IMG/VR virus record: IMGVR_UViG_3300029989_000006
DNA from: a virus
Length of the DNA stretch: 64,000 bases
Reading direction: 5' to 3' (one strand)
The first letter of the stretch is position 1, and each line of letters starts with the position of its first letter. The position numbers and the translations under genes were made by a program. This document shows positions 15,492 to 64,000 of the stretch, one piece after another. The notes below the pieces were generated by a model. It searched no databases. It was not told the DNA's origin and worked only from the letters and a program-made list of their open reading frames with translations.

Positions 15492-15740
15492 ATGACTGCA
15501 AACGAATTCAATAAGAAATATGCAGACTTTATAGTTAAGCGACATCCTGGATGTTGTTTAATTAATAAGTCTGTTATTGATTATTTAGACAGAGAATTTG
15601 AGGAATTGATTAAAATCCCAGGTTTTCAATTCCACGAGATTAAACCAAGGTTTAATTTCTTTAGATTAACAGGAACAGATTTATCTCAAGAAAAGATTTG
15701 GGAGATTGAGAATAAATTATATGAATTACATAAACAATGA
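15492..15740 (+). CDS. hypothetical protein
   Basis: 82 aa; HEIKPRFNFFRL resembles the motif in 13660..14142. Confidence 0.65.
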   Translation: MTANEFNKKYADFIVKRHPGCCLINKSVIDYLDREFEELIKIPGFQFHEIKPRFNFFRLTGTDLSQEKIWEIENKLYELHKQ

Positions 15741-16246
15741 AATTAATAATAAAAGAAAAATCAAAATCACAACTTAGGGAAGTTTATGTTATTGAAGTTG
15801 ATTTTATGTTTGGGGACGCAGATGGTAATGAAACTTTAACTTTTGAGTTTTCTGAAGCAGAGTATGCAGATTTATATTTTGCAGATGAAGTGCATTCATT
15901 TATTAAATCTATATTAGAAGCAATTGATATAGATCGTCTAGGAAGAGGTGGTTTTGAATCTTCAAGAGAATGTATAAGATGGTATGGTTTAGGTCAGGAT
16001 TATACATGGAAAAATAATAAAATGGCATATGTTGAAGTACATAATCCAGTTTATCAGTGGAATAGATTTTGTGAAGATGATTATGATATTGAAGAATTTG
16101 AAGAGTTAGAATTTAGATCGGATAGATTTTTATATAGCATCCCAACTTACTCTGATAGATGGTATGGTTCATATGAATCTATTACCATTTCATATTATGA
16201 TGATCAAGGATATAAATATTTAGTAGAAATTGATGAGAAAAATTAG
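15737..16246 (+). CDS. acidic hypothetical protein
   Basis: 169 aa; ATGA overlap. Confidence 0.7.
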   Translation: MKLIIKEKSKSQLREVYVIEVDFMFGDADGNETLTFEFSEAEYADLYFADEVHSFIKSILEAIDIDRLGRGGFESSRECIRWYGLGQDYTWKNNKMAYVEVHNPVYQWNRFCEDDYDIEEFEELEFRSDRFLYSIPTYSDRWYGSYESITISYYDDQGYKYLVEIDEKN

Positions 16247-17321
16247 TGCAGAAATAATTGCGGACAGTACAATACATGGCCATAGATTGATTACTTATAT
16301 GTTGACTTATCCAAGATTTATACATGCAGAACTGATGACACATCGTGTGTTTTCAAGAAATTCGGCTAGTAGCAGAGCCATACCATTTGAGAAAATGATA
16401 AAATCTGTTGGAGAAGATCCGTTTATTCCTATTGCATGGCAAAAAGATCATAAAGGTATGCAGGGAGCACAATATATTACTTCTCCACAGGGAATAGAAC
16501 ATTGTAATAATTTATGGGAAGTAGCAGCAGAACAAGCTGTTAAATCAGCTAAGATGATAAGAATAATGGATGGAGAAATTGAGTATCCCGGTACAATTGA
16601 GGAAGTATTTTCTGATTTTGAAGATGAGGATGAGATTTTAATTACAAAACAACTTTGTAATCGTCTTTTAGAACCGTTTTTATGGCACACTGTAATAGTA
16701 ACATCAACTGAATTTTCAAATTTCTTTGAATTAAGATGTCCTAAATATATTCAACATACTATAAACAAAGTAAACACTTTTTACAGTAAAAAAGATTATG
16801 AAAATAAGTATGGTAAACAAGATATATCTGAATTAGATTGGATTAAATCTAGTCAATCAGGAGCTGAAATACATATTCAAGCATTAGCGGAAGCTATGTG
16901 GAATGCTAAAAATGAATCTACTCCTAAAGAATTAAAAGAAGGTGAATGGCATATTCCTTTTGGAGATAAAATATCTGGAGATGTTACAAAATGGTTTTCA
17001 ACTATTGAAGATCAAGCATATTGGTTAGGAAAAGATATGACTAAGTTATTTCTTAAAGTAGCTGTTGCACGATGTGCTAGATTATCTTACATGACATTTG
17101 ATGGAGAAATAGATTATAAAAAAGATATTCAACTCCATGATACACTGTTAGCTAGTAAACACGCAAGCCCATTTGAACATGTAAGTCGAGGTTTAACTGA
17201 AGAAGAATATAACACATTAGGTAAAATGATATTAGATCCAGTTAAAGGTTATGTTTTTGAAAAAGGATGGGCTGATAATTTTAGAGGATTTATATCTTAT
17301 AGAAGAATTCTAAATTTCTAA
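16233..17321 (+). CDS. thyX: FAD-dependent thymidylate synthase
   Basis: AELMTHRVFSRNSASSRAIP, NRLLEPF, NFFELR, ARCARLSY, HASPFEH. Confidence 0.9.
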   Translation: MRKISAEIIADSTIHGHRLITYMLTYPRFIHAELMTHRVFSRNSASSRAIPFEKMIKSVGEDPFIPIAWQKDHKGMQGAQYITSPQGIEHCNNLWEVAAEQAVKSAKMIRIMDGEIEYPGTIEEVFSDFEDEDEILITKQLCNRLLEPFLWHTVIVTSTEFSNFFELRCPKYIQHTINKVNTFYSKKDYENKYGKQDISELDWIKSSQSGAEIHIQALAEAMWNAKNESTPKELKEGEWHIPFGDKISGDVTKWFSTIEDQAYWLGKDMTKLFLKVAVARCARLSYMTFDGEIDYKKDIQLHDTLLASKHASPFEHVSRGLTEEEYNTLGKMILDPVKGYVFEKGWADNFRGFISYRRILNF

Positions 17322-17352
17322 ATTTTAAAGGATTTATTAAAATTTTAATTAT

Positions 17353-17360
17353 TATCTTTG
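17353..17360 (+). promoter_or_regulatory. Bacteroidota-type -7 promoter box
   Basis: TATCTTTG(CA) 13 nt upstream of the ATG at 17374. Confidence 0.65.
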
Positions 17361-17373
17361 CATATAACTTTAA

Positions 17374-18105
17374 ATGAAGAATATGTCAGGAATTTATAAA
17401 ATTTTAAATAAATCCAATAACAAATGTTATATTGGTAGTACAGTTAATTTCGGTGATAGAAAAAATTTACATTTTTCTAAATTAAAACGAGGAAAACATC
17501 ATTCAATTATTCTGCAAAGAGCATATGATAAATATGAAATAGATAGTTTTGAATTTATTATTTTAGAAGAGTGTGAAAATGAAAAACTTCTAGAAAGAGA
17601 ACAATGATATTTTGATAATTATAAACCAGAATATAATGTTGCAAAAGTTGCAGGAAATACACTAGGTGTTGCCTCTACAAGACGTATAGCTATAGTACAA
17701 TATGACTTAGATGGAAATCAAATAAAAATTTGGGATTGTTTAGAAGATATTAAAAAAGAATTAAATTTGGCTGCATCCTCAAAGATATCTGAATGTTGTA
17801 AATTAAAACGAAATAAAATTTATGGCTTTGTTTGAAGATATTTAGAGGATAATCCTGGATTTTCATTAAGTACAGTTAGAAAAGGTAAATGTATTGCTGA
17901 GATAGATTCTTGTGGAAATATTATTAATGTATGAGAAAGAATTATAGATTGTGCAAATGATATAGGAACATCTTCTGCAGCAATTTGTGATACTTTATCA
18001 GAAAAATCCCGAAGAAAAACAATATATAATAGAATGTTTAAAAGAATAGAAAAAGAAGAGTTAGAACAATATCGTTATTTAATAGAAAATAAAAATGATT
18101 GATAA
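17374..18105 (+). CDS. free-standing GIY-YIG homing endonuclease with two NUMOD1-like domains; TGA=Trp (243 aa)
   Basis: GIYKI..CYIGS; EREQ[TGA]YFDNYKPEYNVAKVAGNTLG; VQYDLDGN..ISECC..YGFV[TGA]RY; in-frame TGA at 17605, 17833, 17932, 18100; TAA at 18103-18105. Confidence 0.9.
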
Positions 18106-18610
18106 TATAACTTTAGAAAGAATAAAATTACTTCATCCTAAAATTAGGAATGAAGTACATGATATATATGTAAATGAAGTTGTTCCTGCTTTAACAGGTA
18201 AATCAACTTGTAGATTTGCATACACATTAAGAACATTTGCTGAACAAGATTTATTGTATGCACAAGGTAGAACCAAATTATTTGATGCAAGTGGAAATCG
18301 ATTAGGTATCGTAACTAATGCTTCTGGTGGAAAATCTATCCATAATTATGGATTAGCTTTTGATATTGTATTGTTAGAAAATGCAATTGCTTCATGGGAT
18401 ATAGTAAAAGATTTTGATGGTGATCATGTTCCAGATTGGATGGAAGTTATTAATATCTTTAAAAATAAAGGATATGAATGGGGTGGAGACTGGAAAAGTT
18501 TAAAAGATACACCACATTTACAAAAGACTTTTGGATTAAACTGGGCACAATGTTCAGCTATATATAAAAGAAAAGGTGGATTAGATGCTGATGGATATAT
18601 TATTTTTTAA
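18095..18610 (+). CDS. endolysin, peptidase M15 family (L-Ala-D-Glu peptidase-like)
   Basis: RTFAEQDLLYAQGR, VTNA, SIHNYGLAFD, WGGDW, DTPHLQ. Confidence 0.92.
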   Translation: MIDNITLERIKLLHPKIRNEVHDIYVNEVVPALTGKSTCRFAYTLRTFAEQDLLYAQGRTKLFDASGNRLGIVTNASGGKSIHNYGLAFDIVLLENAIASWDIVKDFDGDHVPDWMEVINIFKNKGYEWGGDWKSLKDTPHLQKTFGLNWAQCSAIYKRKGGLDADGYIIF

Positions 18611-18614
18611 TTAA

Positions 18615-18998
18615 ATGGAAGAAAAGGCATTAAGATTTAATAGTGGAAAACCTAAATGGTCTTTAGTTCATTATAAATCAATAGTTCCCATGATCCGTGT
18701 ATTGGAATATGGGGCACATAAATACAGCACTTTTATAAGTCAAGATGGATCAAAAACTGTAACAGGTGCTGAGATAACTCAAGAAGAAGCAAAGGATTGG
18801 ATTTTATTAACCTCTGGAAGAAATAATTGGAAGAAACCAATGGATCTGAAAGAGATTTTAGAATCTATGCAACGACATATAGCTCAATTAATGGATGGAG
18901 AAGATTGTGATTTAGAGTCCGGTATTAATCATATGGGACACATAATGTGTAATGCAATGTTCTATAATTATCATAAAGATAATGAACTTTTAACTTAA
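18615..18998 (+). CDS. dATP/dGTP diphosphohydrolase domain protein (DUF5664)
   Basis: RFNSGKPKWSL, VLEYGAHKY, NNWKK, RH, DLESGINHMGHIMCNAMF. Confidence 0.85.
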   Translation: MEEKALRFNSGKPKWSLVHYKSIVPMIRVLEYGAHKYSTFISQDGSKTVTGAEITQEEAKDWILLTSGRNNWKKPMDLKEILESMQRHIAQLMDGEDCDLESGINHMGHIMCNAMFYNYHKDNELLT

Positions 18999-18999
18999 A

Positions 19000-19182
19000 A
19001 TGGAAAAGAAGGCAAAGTTCAAAGTAGTGCATAATAAACCTCAGTTAATTTGCTCTAAATGTAGTGAATTAGTGAAATATTCAAAAGATTTCTCAGAAGA
19101 GGATTGGAAAGCATTTAAAGGAGAGATTTTATTAAAACCACAATTTTGTGATAAATGTGAAGAAATTTTAAAATATAAATAA
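19000..19182 (+). CDS. small Zn-finger protein
   Basis: CSKC and CDKC pairs in 60 aa. Confidence 0.65.
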   Translation: MEKKAKFKVVHNKPQLICSKCSELVKYSKDFSEEDWKAFKGEILLKPQFCDKCEEILKYK

Positions 19183-19604
19183 TGCAATATATTAAATTTT
19201 TACAAGGATTACCAGGAAGCGGAAAAACTACATGGGCTAAGAAAGTAATTGAACTGAATAAAGACTATGTAATTGTTTCTAGAGCAGAAATATCTAAAAT
19301 AGTTGATGGAATCCCTTACACAGAAGAAATTCATAATGATGTGTTTGAATTGCAGAAGATTATTTGTAAAATATTTCTAAATTCTGGAAAATCTGTAATT
19401 CTTGATGATATGAATTTTGATCCAAAATATTGGGAATATTTTTCTCAATTATCTGTTTCTAGAGGCATTCCAATTGAAAGGATTTTCTTTGATGTGCTAG
19501 TTGAAGAATGTATCGAACGAGATTCAAAACGTGAAAAACCAATTGGAAAAGTAGCTATCGAGCTTGCGTATACAAAGTATCTTAAAGATAATAATAATGA
19601 ATAA
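19182..19604 (+). CDS. P-loop kinase (polynucleotide-kinase N-terminal domain, AAA_33-like)
   Basis: GLPGSGKTTWA, SVILDDMN, ECIERDSKR. Confidence 0.85.
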   Translation: MQYIKFLQGLPGSGKTTWAKKVIELNKDYVIVSRAEISKIVDGIPYTEEIHNDVFELQKIICKIFLNSGKSVILDDMNFDPKYWEYFSQLSVSRGIPIERIFFDVLVEECIERDSKREKPIGKVAIELAYTKYLKDNNNE

Positions 19605-19860
19605 AGAGATTGTGATTAAAATTTTGGAAACCAATTCTGTTTCACGAGATGAATTACATATTTTTATTTCAGATTATATATTGGAAAAGAAAAATAAGAA
19701 CATCTCAGGACAAGAATTAGCTGCAATTGAAAGTATGATCCATCAAGGATTTTTAAATCTAAGATTTGCTGCTGAACAAGCTGCATATGATTTGGGATTA
19801 ACAGTATTATCTTTATTGGATAATGCTTCAAATCCTAAAAAAACTTGGGTATATGAATAA
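19597..19860 (+). CDS. hypothetical protein
   Basis: ATG at 19597; ends just before a terminator. Confidence 0.65.
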   Translation: MNKEIVIKILETNSVSRDELHIFISDYILEKKNKNISGQELAAIESMIHQGFLNLRFAAEQAAYDLGLTVLSLLDNASNPKKTWVYE

Positions 19861-19865
19861 ATAAT

Positions 19866-19913
19866 AATAGGGAAGGATTGTAGTTTAACTACAGTCTTTC
19901 CCTATTTTTTTTT
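19866..19913 (+). terminator. Rho-independent terminator
   Basis: AATAGGGAAGGATTGTAGTT-T-AACTACAGTCTTTCCCTATT plus T run. Confidence 0.9.
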
Positions 19914-19944
19914 GATTTTTATATTTTTTATGAAAAAATATTTA

Positions 19945-19952
19945 TATTTTTG
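19945..19952 (+). promoter_or_regulatory. possible Bacteroidota -7 box
   Basis: TATTTTTG upstream of the ATG at 19979; could occur by chance in AT-rich DNA. Confidence 0.4.
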
Positions 19953-19978
19953 ATGATTAATTTAATATTATAATTCTT

Positions 19979-20686
19979 ATGGAAAATTCAAATTTTGCTT
20001 CATATACACCGTACATTGATGATCTTTCATCTGATGAAAAATTAAAAGAATATTATACTCAGCATCCTCATTTTTCTAATGAGTATTTAGATAGATATTT
20101 AGCACAACTAACTCCTGAACCTAAAACTATGATTGTAACAACTCCTAAAGATGAAAAACATTACTCCACAAGTGATATTATAGGAAATAAAGAATATTTT
20201 GCTAAATTATTAGGAACTAAATCTAATTATGTTTCTCCAGTTAAAAATGAAATTACTGATGAAATTAGTAAAATGGATGTACCTGATGAAGATAAAGAAT
20301 ATCTAGTAAAATTAGCAGGAAGAGAAAGTAATTATAATCCAACTGTCAAGAATAAATTTGGGTACTATGGATTATATCAATTTGGTGATAGTGCTCTAAA
20401 AGATATTGGTGAGACTAGACAATCTTTTACAGATAGTGCAACACAGAATAATGGTGCACTAAAATTAGCTAAGTTAAATGAATCTCGTTTACAAAATGTA
20501 ATGAGTGAATTTGTAGGTAAGAAATTTAGGGGATTAAATATCACAAGAAATGGAATTTTAGCTGCAGCACATTTATTAGGTGCAGGAAAAGTGCAGAAAT
20601 GGTTTAGTGAAGAAAAACCTGATGCAAAAGATTATCATGATGGTTTTGGAACAAAAATAGAAGAATATTTAAATCTTTATTCATAA
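19979..20686 (+). CDS. lysozyme-like / lytic transglycosylase domain protein
   Basis: RESNYNP (catalytic Glu), GYYGLYQFG, ILAAAHLLGAG. Confidence 0.85.
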   Translation: MENSNFASYTPYIDDLSSDEKLKEYYTQHPHFSNEYLDRYLAQLTPEPKTMIVTTPKDEKHYSTSDIIGNKEYFAKLLGTKSNYVSPVKNEITDEISKMDVPDEDKEYLVKLAGRESNYNPTVKNKFGYYGLYQFGDSALKDIGETRQSFTDSATQNNGALKLAKLNESRLQNVMSEFVGKKFRGLNITRNGILAAAHLLGAGKVQKWFSEEKPDAKDYHDGFGTKIEEYLNLYS

Positions 20687-20694
20687 TAAAACAG

Positions 20695-20734
20695 AAATAC
20701 CCACAGTACAATCGTACTGTGGGTATTTTTTTTT
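20695..20734. terminator. hairpin terminator between the convergent arms (probably bidirectional)
   Basis: AAATACCCACAGTAC-AATC-GTACTGTGGGTATTT plus T run; A-rich on the other side. Confidence 0.9.
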
Positions 20735-23700
20735 ATTCTGATGGATGCATAAACTCAAACATCTTAAGATCTTTATTCATTAATTGTTCAAATGTTTTAT
20801 TTCCTCATAATACACTGTGTACATCTGTTGCAGTTTTAGTTCCTCAAGCTCAAAAAACTGGCTCAGTTTTTAAAGCTCCTAAAGTATTATTTCATAAATT
20901 TCCTTCACTTAATACTTTTTTATTTACGGATGCCATAAACTCTACTGTTCTTCCATCAATTCCATCAGTACCATTTTCTGCAATTCAGCCATCATAAATA
21001 GCCTTCATCATACCAAACAGTAAAACCATTAATAATGAATCTACCATTGCAAAACCTACTCTCTCATTTCTATGATCTTTATTTTTTGCAATTTCTCCTC
21101 AGTTTCCTTTTATAACATCTTGCATTAGATATCCTACAGAGTATAATAACCCTTCTTGTGGATGTCCTACTCATGCTAACATTGGATCTCCAGTATTTTC
21201 AGTAGTTGCTTTAAATCCAATAATTTCATCAGGATTTGTTTGACTATAAACAGGTTCTCTTCATAATAATTGACCTGTTTCCTCATCAGTTACTTGTTGA
21301 TGACTTCCCATCATACTTTTATCTGCAGAAACTGGTTTACCAAATCACATATTCATCTTACCTGGCCAGAATTGAAGTAATTGTAATCAGATTATTCCAT
21401 ACCAAGTATTATGTCACTCGGCTTGACTATCTTTATCATAATATCCATAAACTGTATCAGTAAAAGATTTAAATCCAGTTCTTTCTTTTTCAGAATAAGC
21501 TTGATCTAATAAATCAGTTGCTTCATCAAGAATTGGATTGTTTCCTTTAGCTAATTCTGTATTTCTTTCACCTAAAATTATTGTATAAAGATTTCTTTGT
21601 TCATTATATTTTAGATTATTCTTTGCAGGAATATATTGTCCATCAGCATTTTTATATTTTTCTCTATTTTGGAAATAATATTCAAATCGCTTATCTTGAG
21701 TTGGATCATAGTGTATATAACCTTTATCGTCTAAAGTATGTGCATAAAAACTTCCATCATGAATCATTTTTGCAATGAATAGAGATAATCTATTATAATA
21801 ATCAGGAATAGTATTACAAGCATACATCCATTTACTTAATCCTAACATAGCACCTCTTCTATTTGTCTGCATTTTTCTCGGTAAAGAATTAACATCCATA
21901 TTTGCAAATCCATAATAAAGATTTATTCCATCCATTAAATTTCATTTTTTAGACATTTTATTATCAACTGCTAACATAATCTTCATTGCTTCTGCTAAAT
22001 CTTTAATATTAAATGGTTTTTTTCCACCATAAATATTAAGGGCAGCCAATCCTACATTTTTATACAATCCAAATGTTAATTCCTTTGCCATTAAAGCAGG
22101 ACGAAATCCTAACATTGCAGCAGTTGCAATGGTTTTCCCTGATCGAACTAATCTAATTGCATCACTTGCCTCTGGATCAATAATAGGTTCATCAAATAAT
22201 CCTAATTTTATTCTATTAGTAATGTATTCTAATTGTTTAGATATGTTTTCTTTATTTTTTCCTGCAAGTAATTTCATTCATCAAACATATGATGTAATAT
22301 TTGGAAGAATTGCGTCAACATTTGCTTTTCTTATACTACTGAAAGCAACTCTATGAGCTATTGTATCTAAATCCAATTCATAATATCCTGGGGAATTTTC
22401 ATTAATTAGTCTAACTTTCATTTCATCTGATTGCATAGAATAAATATCATACATTTCATTGAAACCTAATTGTGTTTCTTTAATTCTATTTAAATCATTT
22501 TCTGAAAATTCTCTTGGATCTAAATAGTCCTTAGTTTCATCAAGTCATTTAGATACATCTTGTCATAATCCTGCTAATCCACTTTTTAAAATTCTATCAT
22601 TTCTATTAATTTGTTGAGAACGCATTATTGGCATTTTGAAATAATCTCCAGAAATAATACTCTTTATAATTATACCAGAAGTATCAGTTTTAGTAATAGA
22701 TTCTATACTTGTTAAATCAATTTTACCTCATAATTTTTCTGGAATATGTAGTCTATATTTTTTAATTTCAAATAACATTTGCTTAGAATATTCTTGTTCA
22801 GCCTGTGTTAGAGTCTTATCAGAATATGGATCTTTTAATGACCAACTATTAGAAACTTCACTGCCATCATGTTCTCACATATTTTTATTAAGAGATCTAA
22901 CATTACCAATTCAATTTTGTGAAAGATTTGAGTAGTTTATTTTTTTAAAAAATTCATATGTAAATGCAGCTATTGTAGTAGATTGTTTATACATTTTATG
23001 TCTAATACTAGAATTTGCTCCTGTAATCATTTTATTAATATTCTGTAAATCTACAGAACCTATACGATCAGGAGTATTAGTTTTCAAACCACCAATAATT
23101 CCTAAAATTCTTCTACCAGTTTTATCATAATCTGCTTGTTCATCTGAATAAAAAGCTGCTAATAAACTTTTAAAATCAGAGAAACCAATAGCAAAATTTC
23201 TCATTTGCATAAAATCTCCCTCTGGGACATCTCCTGATTTAGCAACAATTAATGAAGATAGAATTGCAAAAACATATTCAAGTCTGTTCTTAAAATCAAT
23301 TTCAGAACCAAAAGTTTTTTTCTTTAATTCTGGAAAAGCATCAGCAAGTTCTCTATGAATTTGTTTCAATTTATACAATTCCATTCCTTGATAATCTTCA
23401 CCATATTTTAAAACAATTTTTTCAACTGATGTAGACTCTAAATTAAGAACTGCCTCTTGCATTTCTGTAACAGCTCTATCTGTAAGATTAAGAAAATTAG
23501 ATAAATTTATTTTTGGAGTTATTCCTTTTGAAGTTAATAAATCAAAATATTGTTTTTGTATTTTATTTACATCAAAATATCTTGCCTGAGATCCCTCAAC
23601 ATTTAATGGTATTAAATTCTTAATTTTATTGAAATCTAAATCTAATTCATCATAATAATGATGAAAAAATAATAACATTTTTAAATATTCAACCTCAGCA

Positions 23701-63601: not shown

Positions 63602-64000
63602 CTAAGCTTGAACTGTATAAGTAATGCTTGCAGTATTACCAACTGCATCAGTAACAGTAACAATTGCTGCACCTGTTCCTGTAACTCCATCAGTAGTAAC
63701 TAATCCAGTAGCATTAACAGTTGCTCTTGTAGGTTGATCAGATACAAATGTAATTGCTCCAATTGCACCAGTAACAACCATTTGATCTGCAGTATTATCT
63801 GAAGTATCTAATGTAGCTGTTGTAGTAACAACTGCGGTTAATTTATAAGGTGTTGTTAAAGATAATTTATCTAATTCAGTTTCAAAATCAGAGACAAGAT
63901 CCGCTTTTACCCAAAATACATGAGTTGTAATTGATGTTGCACCAGAAACAATTCCATCTTGTCCATCTTTAGTTTTAGAATAACGAAGTGTATATTCTGT
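63602..64000 (-). CDS. partial (3' end) structural protein, probably auxiliary capsid protein with C-terminal Ig-like domain
   Basis: 133 open codons: TEYTLRY..THVFWV..ITFVSDQPTRATVNATGLVT..GAAIVTVTDAVGNTASITYTVQA-TAG. Confidence 0.75.
   Translation of the reverse strand, partial: TEYTLRYSKTKDGQDGIVSGATSITTHVFWVKADLVSDFETELDKLSLTTPYKLTAVVTTTATLDTSDNTADQMVVTGAIGAITFVSDQPTRATVNATGLVTTDGVTGTGAAIVTVTDAVGNTASITYTVQA

What the first reader, a model, noticed from the sequence alone, without database searches (positions are those of the whole stretch)
17340..18610. Recoded homing endonuclease upstream of a non-recoded endolysin: candidate code-dependent lysis gate
Seen: the GIY-YIG/NUMOD1 gene is the only plus-arm gene I found with internal TGA (17605, 17833, 17932, 18100). 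It has its own TAnnTTTG box, and its full-length end overlaps the endolysin ATG (18095) by 11 nt. All five endolysin Trp codons are TGG. Inference: before the code switch ribosomes stop at codon 78. That gives a truncated nuclease and leaves ~490 nt of untranslated mRNA before the lysin, removing translational coupling and inviting polarity. After the switch both are made. The selfish nuclease would be confined to late infection, when homing templates exist, and could time lysis indirectly.
Basis: partly seen in the sequence, partly recalled or inferred. Interest (0 to 1): 0.8.

Follow-up and report, generated by a model that had tools for sequence, protein, structure and literature searches.

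The report
Late-code homing endonuclease beside phage lysin
A selfish DNA-cutting gene in the standard-code half of a 172-kb crAss-like phage is written in the phage's late genetic code (TGA = tryptophan), so it is probably made in full only late in infection; this kind of gating is already published, and the proposed control of cell lysis through the neighbouring lysin gene is not supported.

Summary
The ORF at 17374/17383-18105 is an intact GIY-YIG homing endonuclease (HE). It has three internal TGA codons, plus a terminal TGA followed directly by TAA. Its end overlaps the ATG of a TGA-free M15 endolysin by 11 nt.

- **TGA is read as Trp.** The internal TGAs lie at Trp or aromatic positions of homologues. 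dN/dS is 0.10-0.14, and it is the same after the first TGA, so this is not a decayed gene.
- **The pattern covers all three HE-like genes.** About 50 kb of the standard-code arm could be read. Only three genes there have internal TGA, and all three are HE-like (8 TGA : 5 TGG against 0 : about 198, p = 1.5e-11).
- **The HE belongs to thyX, not to the lysin.** All six lineages of this HE clade sit right after thyX, five of them with a conserved TAnnTTTG box. The gene downstream differs: lysin, phosphoesterase, dGTP-diphosphohydrolase-like, or unknown.
- **The lysis gate lacks support.** The linkage is not conserved. The untranslated stretch has 8.8% C. The lysin start has Bacteroidetes-type upstream adenines. 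A four-TGA HE likewise overlaps the DnaB-like helicase start. No holin lies nearby.

Code-gated HE production was proposed by Borges et al. for Agate phages. This scan has also noted it before on other DNA (e1-5676875, e1-2903432). Verdict: a new member of a known kind, of modest interest.

The parts
16233..17321 (+). thyX (flavin-dependent thymidylate synthase). No TGA, 9 TGG. All six lineages of this HE clade sit right after its 3' end.
   Evidence: Pfam Thy1; 53 homologous loci; thyX C-terminus found upstream of the HE in L055, L056, L112, L113 and L114.
17330..17415 (+). A/U-rich inverted repeat. As RNA it encloses both candidate HE start codons. The promoter-like box lies inside its 5' half.
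   Evidence: MFE -21.9 kcal/mol, z = -4.2, 0 of 200 shuffles as stable. Same topology but weaker in L056 (-15.2, z = -1.8) and not significant in L055. One compensatory pair. Tentative.
17353..17360 (+). TAnnTTTG box (Bacteroidetes -7 type), 22 nt before ATG 17383. Candidate promoter carried by the HE cassette.
   Evidence: Chance-level frequency in the window, but conserved 25-31 nt upstream of the HE ATG in 5 of 6 lineages whose HE proteins are 56-90% identical.
17383..18105 (+). Free-standing GIY-YIG homing endonuclease gene (alternative start 17374). 240 codons under TGA = Trp. Standard code stops after codon 74.
   Evidence: Pfam GIY-YIG 2e-11; phrog_314 and phrog_7168 'homing endonuclease'; I-TevI catalytic domain 1MK0 at E = 1.5e-12; dN/dS 0.10-0.14.
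17605..17607 (+). First in-frame TGA. Aligns with Trp, Tyr, Phe or His after the conserved catalytic Glu.
   Evidence: Alignment A1. TGA in L055, TAT in L056.
17833..17835 (+). Second in-frame TGA, at a nearly invariant Trp (G-F-V-W-R-Y motif).
   Evidence: W154 conserved in at least 90% of sequences in A1. TGA in L055; TGG in L056, L112, L113 and L114.
17932..17934 (+). Third in-frame TGA, at a Trp conserved in close relatives.
18100..18105 (+). TGA-TAA tandem at the HE end, inside lysin codons 2-4. The protein ends here under either code, give or take one Trp.
18095..18610 (+). M15 (L-alanyl-D-glutamate peptidase type) endolysin. Standard code, 5 TGG, no signal or anchor sequence.
   Evidence: Pfam Peptidase_M15_4 9e-18; PHROG endolysin families; 50-52% identical to annotated lysins of Riemerella and Elizabethkingia phages; no TM segment.
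18615..18998 (+). dATP/dGTP diphosphohydrolase-like gene. In HE-less and lysin-less relatives it follows thyX directly.
   Evidence: Pfam dGTP_diPhyd_N 2e-21. Order thyX then dGTPdi in L007, L008 and L049. HE then dGTPdi in L113.
19866..19906 (+). Strong intrinsic-terminator-like hairpin that closes the thyX-HE-lysin transcription unit.
   Evidence: 19-bp stem plus T run.

Best explanation
The gene is an intact, free-standing I-TevI-like GIY-YIG homing endonuclease cassette (candidate promoter box plus ORF). It has colonised the site just after thyX in the standard-code replication arm of a roughly 172-kb crAss-like phage that reads TGA as Trp in its structural arm.

In this lineage three Trp positions of the endonuclease are written TGA. 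Under standard decoding, ribosomes release a 74-77-residue fragment. That fragment lacks the conserved Asn of the catalytic core and the entire DNA-binding half. Full-length nuclease appears only when TGA is suppressed, by inference later in infection.

The same holds for the two other endonuclease-like genes of this arm. So this is a property of the phage's selfish nucleases as a class. It is not a device aimed at the neighbouring lysin. The lysin is most likely translated independently of the endonuclease.

Shown here: the ORF is intact, TGA sits at conserved Trp positions, the whole length is under purifying selection, internal TGA in this arm is exclusive to HE-like genes, and the cassette is linked to thyX.

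Inferred, not shown: that TGA suppression is temporally regulated, that the box is a promoter, and that the enzyme cleaves an HE-less thyX junction.
For: - **TGA-only interruptions.** There is no TAA or TAG in the 164 codons after the first TGA. The chance of that in this composition is 1.2e-6.
- **TGA at conserved positions.** TGA154 lies at a nearly invariant Trp. TGA187 is Trp in close relatives. TGA78 is aromatic.
- **Purifying selection.** Against L055 and L056, dN/dS is 0.08-0.13 before the first TGA and 0.105-0.141 after it, at dS of about 0.65.
- **Shared TGA positions.** L055 carries TGA at the same three codons. L056, L112, L113 and L114 carry TGG, or TAT at the first position, so both spellings encode a working protein.
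- **Late-arm spelling.** Trp spelling in the HE (75% TGA) matches the late arm (120 TGA: 29 TGG) and not its own arm (0: 85).
- **Exclusive to HE-like genes.** Over about 50 kb of the arm (L111, L109, L106 and the window), the only genes with internal TGA are three endonuclease-like genes: 8 TGA: 5 TGG against 0: about 198, p = 1.5e-11.
- **Catalytic domain.** It is homologous to I-TevI (1MK0).
- **HE-type distribution.** There is presence/absence variation at a fixed site. thyX is followed directly by dGTPdi in L007, L008 and L049. The HE follows thyX in six lineages.
- **Published precedent.** Borges et al., bioRxiv 10.1101/2021.08.26.457843, report a TGA-enriched intron endonuclease in an early gene of Agate phages, predicted to be made late. 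In T4, HE translation is delayed by hairpins combined with late promoters (PMC2988022).
Against: - No UCA suppressor tRNA was found in the roughly 114 kb I could read. That stretch holds only tRNA-Trp(CCA) and eight other tRNAs.
- The suppressor's existence elsewhere in the genome rests on an unchecked scan note (e1-5661133).
- The timing of suppression is unknown for this phage, which is uncultured.
- More distant members of the HE clade work without TGA. The TGAs could therefore be tolerated drift under AT pressure and not a selected timer.
- NUMOD1 is below the Pfam threshold.
- No cleavage site was identified.
Confidence: 0.72

Rival explanations
1. Premature termination at the first TGA uncouples the lysin and exerts polarity on it, so endolysin output, and indirectly lysis, waits for the code switch.
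For: The HE end overlaps the lysin ATG by 11 nt. A weak local hairpin can pair the lysin AUG (-12.1 kcal/mol, z = -1.8), so an arriving ribosome could help initiation. There is no terminator and no strong conserved promoter between the first TGA and the lysin.
Against: - The HE-lysin linkage is not conserved. L055 (also TGA-bearing) has Metallophos downstream, L113 has dGTPdi, and L056 has another ORF.
- The untranslated stretch has 8.8% C and 17.5% G, so it lacks Rho-loading composition.
- The lysin start has A at -3, -6 and -13, which favour independent initiation in Flavobacterium (PMC6847099).
- HE3, with four TGAs, overlaps the DnaB-like helicase start in the same way.
- The lysin has no export signal and no holin or spanin gene is nearby. 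By established phage lysis biology, timing should therefore be set by a holin.
- All 41 lysin homologues lack TGA, but they come from standard-code phages, so that check is uninformative.
Confidence: 0.08
2. The TGAs are tolerated drift, not a selected timer. The selfish gene is under no pressure for early expression, so TGG-to-TGA changes driven by the 27% GC mutational bias persist once a suppressor exists. Late-only production is a side effect.
For: More distant clade members (L056, L112, L113, L114) use TGG and are equally conserved. The late arm shows the same 4:1 TGA bias. Borges et al. describe low GC as the driver of recoding.
Against: All three unrelated HE-like genes of the arm carry TGA, while about 85 neighbouring genes carry none. 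The T4 precedent shows that delaying HE translation is itself selected (PMC2988022). The two views predict the same molecular behaviour and cannot be separated with sequence alone.
Confidence: 0.3
3. The TGAs are an ancestry mark. The cassette was recently imported from a fully recoded donor, or from a late region, and has not yet adapted to the standard-code arm.
For: Its Trp spelling matches the late arm. HEs are mobile, and L057-L059 show the same gene as a truncated remnant in a different upstream context.
Against: All six lineages, both TGG and TGA versions, occupy the same thyX 3' site with the same upstream box, so the cassette is old at this site. The window and L055 differ by dS of about 0.64 and share all three TGAs, so the state is long-lived.
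Confidence: 0.08
4. Decayed import: a pseudogene broken by stop codons.
For: Under table 11 the ORF stops at codon 78. Some gene callers split it this way (L061 and L063).
Against: Only TGA interrupts the frame (P = 1.2e-6 for no TAA or TAG). dN/dS after the first TGA is 0.105-0.141. The TGAs sit at conserved Trp positions. All catalytic residues are present.
Confidence: 0.02

Closest known systems
Recoded group I intron endonuclease in an early gene of TGA-recoded Agate phages (Borges et al., bioRxiv 10.1101/2021.08.26.457843; read)
   Same: A homing endonuclease located among standard-code early genes preferentially spells Trp as TGA. The authors predicted that this prevents endonuclease production until late in infection.
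   Different: Here the endonucleases are free-standing, not intron-encoded. Rfam finds no intron and thyX is uninterrupted. The phage is a roughly 172-kb crAss-like phage. All three HE-like genes of the arm show the pattern. Close TGG-spelled relatives at the same site allow a direct comparison.
Phage T4 I-TevI and the seg/mob free-standing endonucleases (review PMC2988022)
   Same: The catalytic domain is of the GIY-YIG type and homologous to I-TevI. The cassette is associated with a thymidylate synthase gene and inserted between genes of a nucleotide-metabolism operon. In T4, HE translation is confined to late times, with a promoter placed inside an RNA hairpin that hides the start on read-through transcripts. 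A similar layout is predicted here.
   Different: The delay here would come mainly from the genetic code and not from RNA structure. The hairpin is only weakly conserved. The neighbouring gene is thyX, not td. Neither cleavage nor homing has been demonstrated.
Code-4 and code-15 crAss-like phages with standard-code replication genes (Yutin et al., PMC7886860, listed and not read here; Zeta crAss-like 'Lera', PMC12386605)
   Same: Two-arm genome with recoded structural and packaging genes, a standard-code replication arm, many tRNAs and several homing endonucleases.
   Different: In Lera, three of four lysin genes and the holin carry TGA. Here the M15 lysin and the SLT-domain protein of the replication arm carry none.

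Membership tests
GIY-YIG homing endonucleases (I-TevI-like) | GIY-YIG catalytic domain with the conserved Tyr, Tyr, Arg, His, Glu and Asn | tested here: met
   Pfam PF01541 at E = 2e-11 over residues 4-88. 1MK0/1LN0 at E = 1.5e-12. Y8, Y19, R29, H33, E76 and N88 are nearly invariant in alignment A1.
GIY-YIG homing endonucleases (I-TevI-like) | C-terminal modular DNA-binding region (NUMOD or helix-turn-helix type) | tested here: inconclusive
   NUMOD1 scores 17.4 bits, below the 22.8 cut-off. Homologues carry PF07453 and PF22083. phrog_314 and phrog_7168 align through residue 227.
GIY-YIG homing endonucleases (I-TevI-like) | Sporadic presence or absence at a fixed genomic site next to a conserved gene | tested here: met
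   The HE sits directly after thyX in six lineages. thyX abuts dGTPdi with no HE in L007, L008 and L049. A truncated remnant occurs in L057-L059.
GIY-YIG homing endonucleases (I-TevI-like) | Site-specific cleavage of the HE-less allele, and homing | not testable with these tools
   Needs purified protein and an HE-less thyX junction substrate.
Stop-codon-recoded (TGA = Trp) phage with standard-code early genes | In-frame TGA in late genes, no TGA stops there, and early genes free of internal TGA | tested here: met
   Minus arm: 120 TGA, 29 TGG, stops 14 TAA and 1 TAG. Plus arm: 0 internal TGA in 31 genes, six of which end in TGA.
Stop-codon-recoded (TGA = Trp) phage with standard-code early genes | Phage-encoded suppressor tRNA with a UCA anticodon | tested here: inconclusive
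   None in the window or in L060, L062, L106, L107, L109, L110 or L111. Only tRNA-Trp(CCA) was seen. The rest of the 172-kb genome could not be fetched. Scan note e1-5661133 places one 33 kb beyond the window; this is unchecked.
Code-gated intron endonuclease of Agate phages (Borges et al.) | Endonuclease encoded inside a self-splicing group I intron of an early gene | tested here: not met
   thyX is complete (residues 1-360 align). The HE lies in the intergenic position. No Rfam intron match in 15500-21000. It works like that case but is free-standing.
T4-type hairpin plus internal promoter control of HE translation | Stable RNA structure hiding the start codon on read-through transcripts, with a promoter inside it | tested here: inconclusive
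   Window hairpin -21.9 kcal/mol, z = -4.2. L056 z = -1.8, L055 z = +0.3. The box lies inside the 5' half and is conserved in 5 of 6 lineages. No transcription start data.
Recoded lysis cassette or 'lysis timer' (Borges et al.) | Lysis genes (lysin, holin, spanin) clustered and carrying recoded stops | tested here: not met
   The lysin has 0 TGA. No TM-bearing small ORF lies in the window's real genes. The lysin sits among nucleotide-metabolism genes.

The most novel reading that the evidence does not exclude
A partial gate cannot be excluded. Before TGA suppression, ribosomes leave the mRNA 490 nt ahead of the lysin. The weak hairpin around the lysin AUG then stays closed, so endolysin output rises only once the endonuclease is read through. 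In this phage species a selfish gene would then have become a translational throttle on a lysis enzyme. More broadly, the phage may use its second genetic code as a general containment switch for all its selfish nucleases, layered on a T4-like arrangement of hairpin and promoter.
Probability: 0.1. Interest if true: 0.65.

Novelty: new member of a known kind. Interest (0 to 1): 0.3.

Why it matters
This is a clean natural example of a phage's two genetic codes being used gene by gene, not only block by block. In about 50 kb of standard-code replication genes, the only genes that need the late code are the three selfish nucleases.

Close relatives carry the same endonuclease at the same site spelled with TGG. 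That gives matched TGA and TGG alleles for testing whether recoding delays nuclease production, and whether the delay matters. It extends to free-standing endonucleases of crAss-like phages an idea published for one intron endonuclease family.

It also matters for annotation. Table-11 gene callers split these genes. The lysin next door is not recoded, so this genome does not fit the simple 'recoded lysis genes' picture.

Tried and rejected
- **Fetching the genome.** No whole genome is held for the window. The ENA and JGI records behind the loci cannot be searched by handle. I therefore walked the 172-kb contig by exact-protein look-ups. That reached only about 29 kb upstream of the window. Two look-ups at the right-hand end found nothing.
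- **Suppressor tRNA.** Not found in any sequence I could read.
All 41 homologues have no TGA. My first 'recoded neighbourhood' heuristic for those loci was spurious. Proper gene maps of six of them (L054, L066, L070, L078, L098, L104) show standard-code phages, so the check says nothing about gating.
- **Public phage records.** No close relative of this locus turned up, only distant thyX, lysin and HE matches.
- **Rfam.** Nothing relevant around the locus.
- **Sigma-70-type promoter scan.** Fewer hits than in shuffled sequence (25 against 35.8), so it is uninformative for a Bacteroidetes-type host.
- **Internal TAnnTTTG boxes in the HE** (17544, 17762). They fall on conserved codons and recur in relatives with other downstream genes. 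I do not read them as lysin promoters.
- **Pseudogene reading.** Rejected on dN/dS and on the open-frame statistics.
- **Structure prediction and complex prediction.** Not used, because no claim here depends on them.
Full report
**What the window is**

The window has 27% GC and two arms.
- The plus-strand arm runs to 20.7 kb and holds replication and nucleotide-metabolism genes: RNR, ligase, dUTPase, a PIF1-type helicase and thyX.
- The minus-strand arm runs from 20.7 to 63.5 kb and holds giant structural and cargo genes.
- The RNR is 43% identical to that of crAss001.

Exact-protein look-ups place the window on independently assembled contigs of 172,155 and 172,180 bp. The overlap I could compare is 100% identical. 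This is therefore a large crAss-like phage. The lysin's relatives and the Bacteroidetes-type promoter box suggest a Bacteroidota host, perhaps a Flavobacteriia member. That host assignment is an inference.

**Two genetic codes**

| Arm | Codons | In-frame TGA | TGG | Stop codons |
|---|---|---|---|---|
| Minus arm (15 ORFs) | 14,227 | 120 | 29 | 14 TAA, 1 TAG, 0 TGA |
| Plus arm in window, non-HE (31 genes) | 6,311 | 0 | 85 | 19 TAA, 6 TAG, 6 TGA |

Each of the six TGA stops in the plus arm is backed by a TAA or TAG 1-18 codons later.

**The observation**

The ORF 17374-18105 has TGA at 17605, 17833, 17932 and 18100. The last is followed directly by TAA. The ORF is a GIY-YIG domain protein:
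- Pfam gives E = 2e-11.
- PHROG homing-endonuclease families cover residues 1-227.
- The I-TevI catalytic domain 1MK0 matches at E = 1.5e-12.
- NUMOD1 is only sub-threshold.

The ORF end overlaps by 11 nt the ATG of a 171-residue M15 peptidase. That peptidase has five TGG and no TGA, and is 50-52% identical to annotated lysins of Riemerella and Elizabethkingia phages. One correction concerns the start codon. In the two closest relatives the 17374 ATG is absent and the ATG equivalent to 17383 is conserved.

**Is the endonuclease alive?**

Yes, on four grounds.
- The three internal TGAs fall at a nearly invariant Trp (G-F-V-W-R-Y), at a Trp conserved in close relatives, and at an aromatic position just after the catalytic Glu.
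- Only TGA interrupts the frame. The chance of no TAA or TAG in the 164 codons after the first TGA is 1.2e-6.
- Two short metagenomic contigs carry 90% and 85% identical copies (L055, L056). Against them dS is about 0.65 and dN/dS is 0.10-0.14. After the first TGA dN/dS is 0.105-0.141, and before it 0.08-0.13.
- L055 has TGA at the same three codons. L056 has TAT, TGG and TGG.

The downstream part is therefore translated, and TGA stands for Trp. The 'decayed import' reading is rejected. Under standard decoding the product ends after 74-77 residues. It would lack the conserved Asn88 and the whole DNA-binding half.

**A class property, not a local device**

Walking upstream of the window gave L106, L109 and L111, so about 50 kb of the arm could be read in all. 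Only two further genes there have internal TGA.
- L106:1429-2421 is a second GIY-YIG/NUMOD1 protein. Its single TGA lies in the same I-W-R-Y type motif.
- L106:3767-4909 is an endonuclease of phrog_559/681 with zinc-ribbon repeats and four TGAs.

Together the three HE-like genes have 8 TGA and 5 TGG. The other roughly 85 genes of the arm have 0 TGA and about 198 TGG (Fisher p = 1.5e-11). Borges et al. reported the same thing for a group I intron endonuclease inserted in an early gene of TGA-recoded Agate phages, and predicted late production. This scan has also logged the pattern on other DNA (e1-5676875, e1-2903432, e1-4406417).

**The cassette belongs to thyX**

All six lineages of this HE clade lie immediately after the thyX 3' end. 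They are the window, L055, L056, L112, L113 and L114, with HE proteins 56-90% identical.
- A TAnnTTTG box lies 25-31 nt before the HE ATG in five of the six. The motif as such occurs at chance frequency in the window (116 against 120 expected).
- The 50-nt spacer is 94% conserved among the window, L055 and L056, far above synonymous-site conservation.
- HE-less relatives have thyX followed directly by the dGTP-diphosphohydrolase-like gene (L007, L008, L049).
- thyX is a hot spot in these phages. Other GIY-YIG genes flank it in L021, L031 and L051. The gene itself is interrupted in L047, L048, L051 and L113.

In the window the HE start lies inside an A/U-rich hairpin (-21.9 kcal/mol, z = -4.2), and the box sits inside its 5' half. 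A transcript starting just after the box would lack the 5' strand and would free the AUG. That is the T4 arrangement for I-TevI, segB and mobE (PMC2988022). The hairpin is weaker in L056 and not significant in L055, so I treat it as tentative.

**The lysis gate**

The downstream partner is not conserved.

| Lineage | HE Trp spelling | Gene after the HE |
|---|---|---|
| Window | TGA | M15 lysin |
| L055 | TGA | Metallophos phosphoesterase |
| L057-L059 (truncated HE remnant) | TGA | Metallophos phosphoesterase |
| L113 | TGG | dGTP-diphosphohydrolase-like gene |
| L056 | TGG (TAT at the first position) | Unrelated ORF |

In each case the HE end abuts or overlaps the next start, as is usual in this tightly packed arm. 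Further points against the gate:
- The 487 nt left untranslated after the first TGA have 8.8% C and 17.5% G. C is at or below G in all but one 78-nt window. This is unlike the C-rich, G-poor tracts that Rho loads on (the Rho preference is established knowledge).
- The lysin start has A at -3, -6 and -13. These are positive determinants of SD-independent initiation in Flavobacterium johnsoniae (PMC6847099). Only a weak local hairpin is predicted there (z = -1.8).
- The four-TGA endonuclease upstream of the window overlaps the start of the DnaB-like helicase by one base. If premature termination silenced the next gene, replication itself would wait for the late code.
- The lysin has no signal or anchor sequence, and no holin- or spanin-like ORF is present in the window. 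By established lysis biology, timing should rest with a holin elsewhere.
- An unchecked scan note (e1-5661134) reports a TGA-recoded transglycosylase next to the suppressor tRNA, about 34 kb beyond the window. If real, that would be a better candidate for a code-locked wall enzyme.

I put the gate at about 8-10%.

**What remains open**

I could not read the rest of the genome. I therefore did not see a tRNA(UCA). Only tRNA-Trp(CCA) and eight other tRNAs were found 20-28 kb upstream of the window. That suppression is late is inferred from the published model and from the strict avoidance of internal TGA by replication genes. Sequence alone cannot tell whether the TGAs in the endonucleases are selected timers or tolerated AT-driven drift in genes that need no early expression. 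Both readings give late-only full-length nuclease.

**Verdict**

The lysis-gate interpretation is not supported. The phenomenon is a further, well-documented member of a published kind. Its useful extras are the 3-of-3 rule for selfish nucleases, the matched TGA and TGG alleles at one site, and a possible T4-like hairpin-and-promoter layer.

Noticed in passing
window 1080, 2318, 5813, 6163, 12012, 15738: Six standard-code genes end in TGA, each backed by a TAA or TAG 1-18 codons downstream. Two of them are ATGA overlaps with the next gene. Under suppression these proteins would gain short C-terminal extensions. The backups look like an adaptation to living with a suppressor.
   Followed up: partly
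L106:1429-2421 and L106:3767-4909 (8.3 and 6.0 kb upstream of the window start): Two further endonuclease-like genes of the standard-code arm carry internal TGA (one and four). The second ends one base into the DnaB-like helicase gene.
   Followed up: yes
L047, L048, L051, L113 (thyX loci of related phages): thyX is interrupted between about residues 243 and 265 by 0.7-1.1 kb that in some cases holds endonuclease-like ORFs. Other GIY-YIG genes flank thyX in L021 and L031. thyX is a hot spot for mobile nucleases, and possibly introns, in this phage group.
   Followed up: no
window 17283-17297 versus 17325-17339: A 15-nt near-repeat (14 of 15 matching) of the thyX 3' end lies just upstream of the HE promoter box. 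It recalls the I-TevI operator, which mimics its homing site, or it may be a remnant of target duplication. It is seen only in the window/L055/L056 clade.
   Followed up: partly
window 17322-18614: Compared with relatives in which thyX abuts the dGTP-diphosphohydrolase-like gene (L007, L008, L049), both the HE and the lysin are extra. The lysin's nearest relatives are standard-code phages of Flavobacteriia, up to 72% identical. The lysin itself may be a lateral acquisition at this recombination-prone site.
   Followed up: partly
L057-L059 (79-564): Truncated remnant of the same endonuclease. It has only the DNA-binding half, still with two TGA codons. It lies between an exonuclease-like gene end and the Metallophos gene, and shows decay of the cassette in a sister population.
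   Followed up: partly
L111:1609-8232 (about 20-28 kb upstream of the window): Cluster of nine tRNA genes that includes tRNA-Trp(CCA) but no UCA-anticodon tRNA.
   Followed up: partly
window 19866-19906 and 20693-20730: Two very strong terminator-like hairpins. One (19-bp stem) lies before the SLT-domain gene, which has its own TAnnTTTG box at 19945. The other is bidirectional and sits at the junction of the two arms.
   Followed up: no
window 63624-63848 (+): A small Val/Thr/Ala/Pro-rich plus-strand ORF with two in-frame TGAs lies beyond the start of the minus arm. No exact product is on record in the collection.
   Followed up: no
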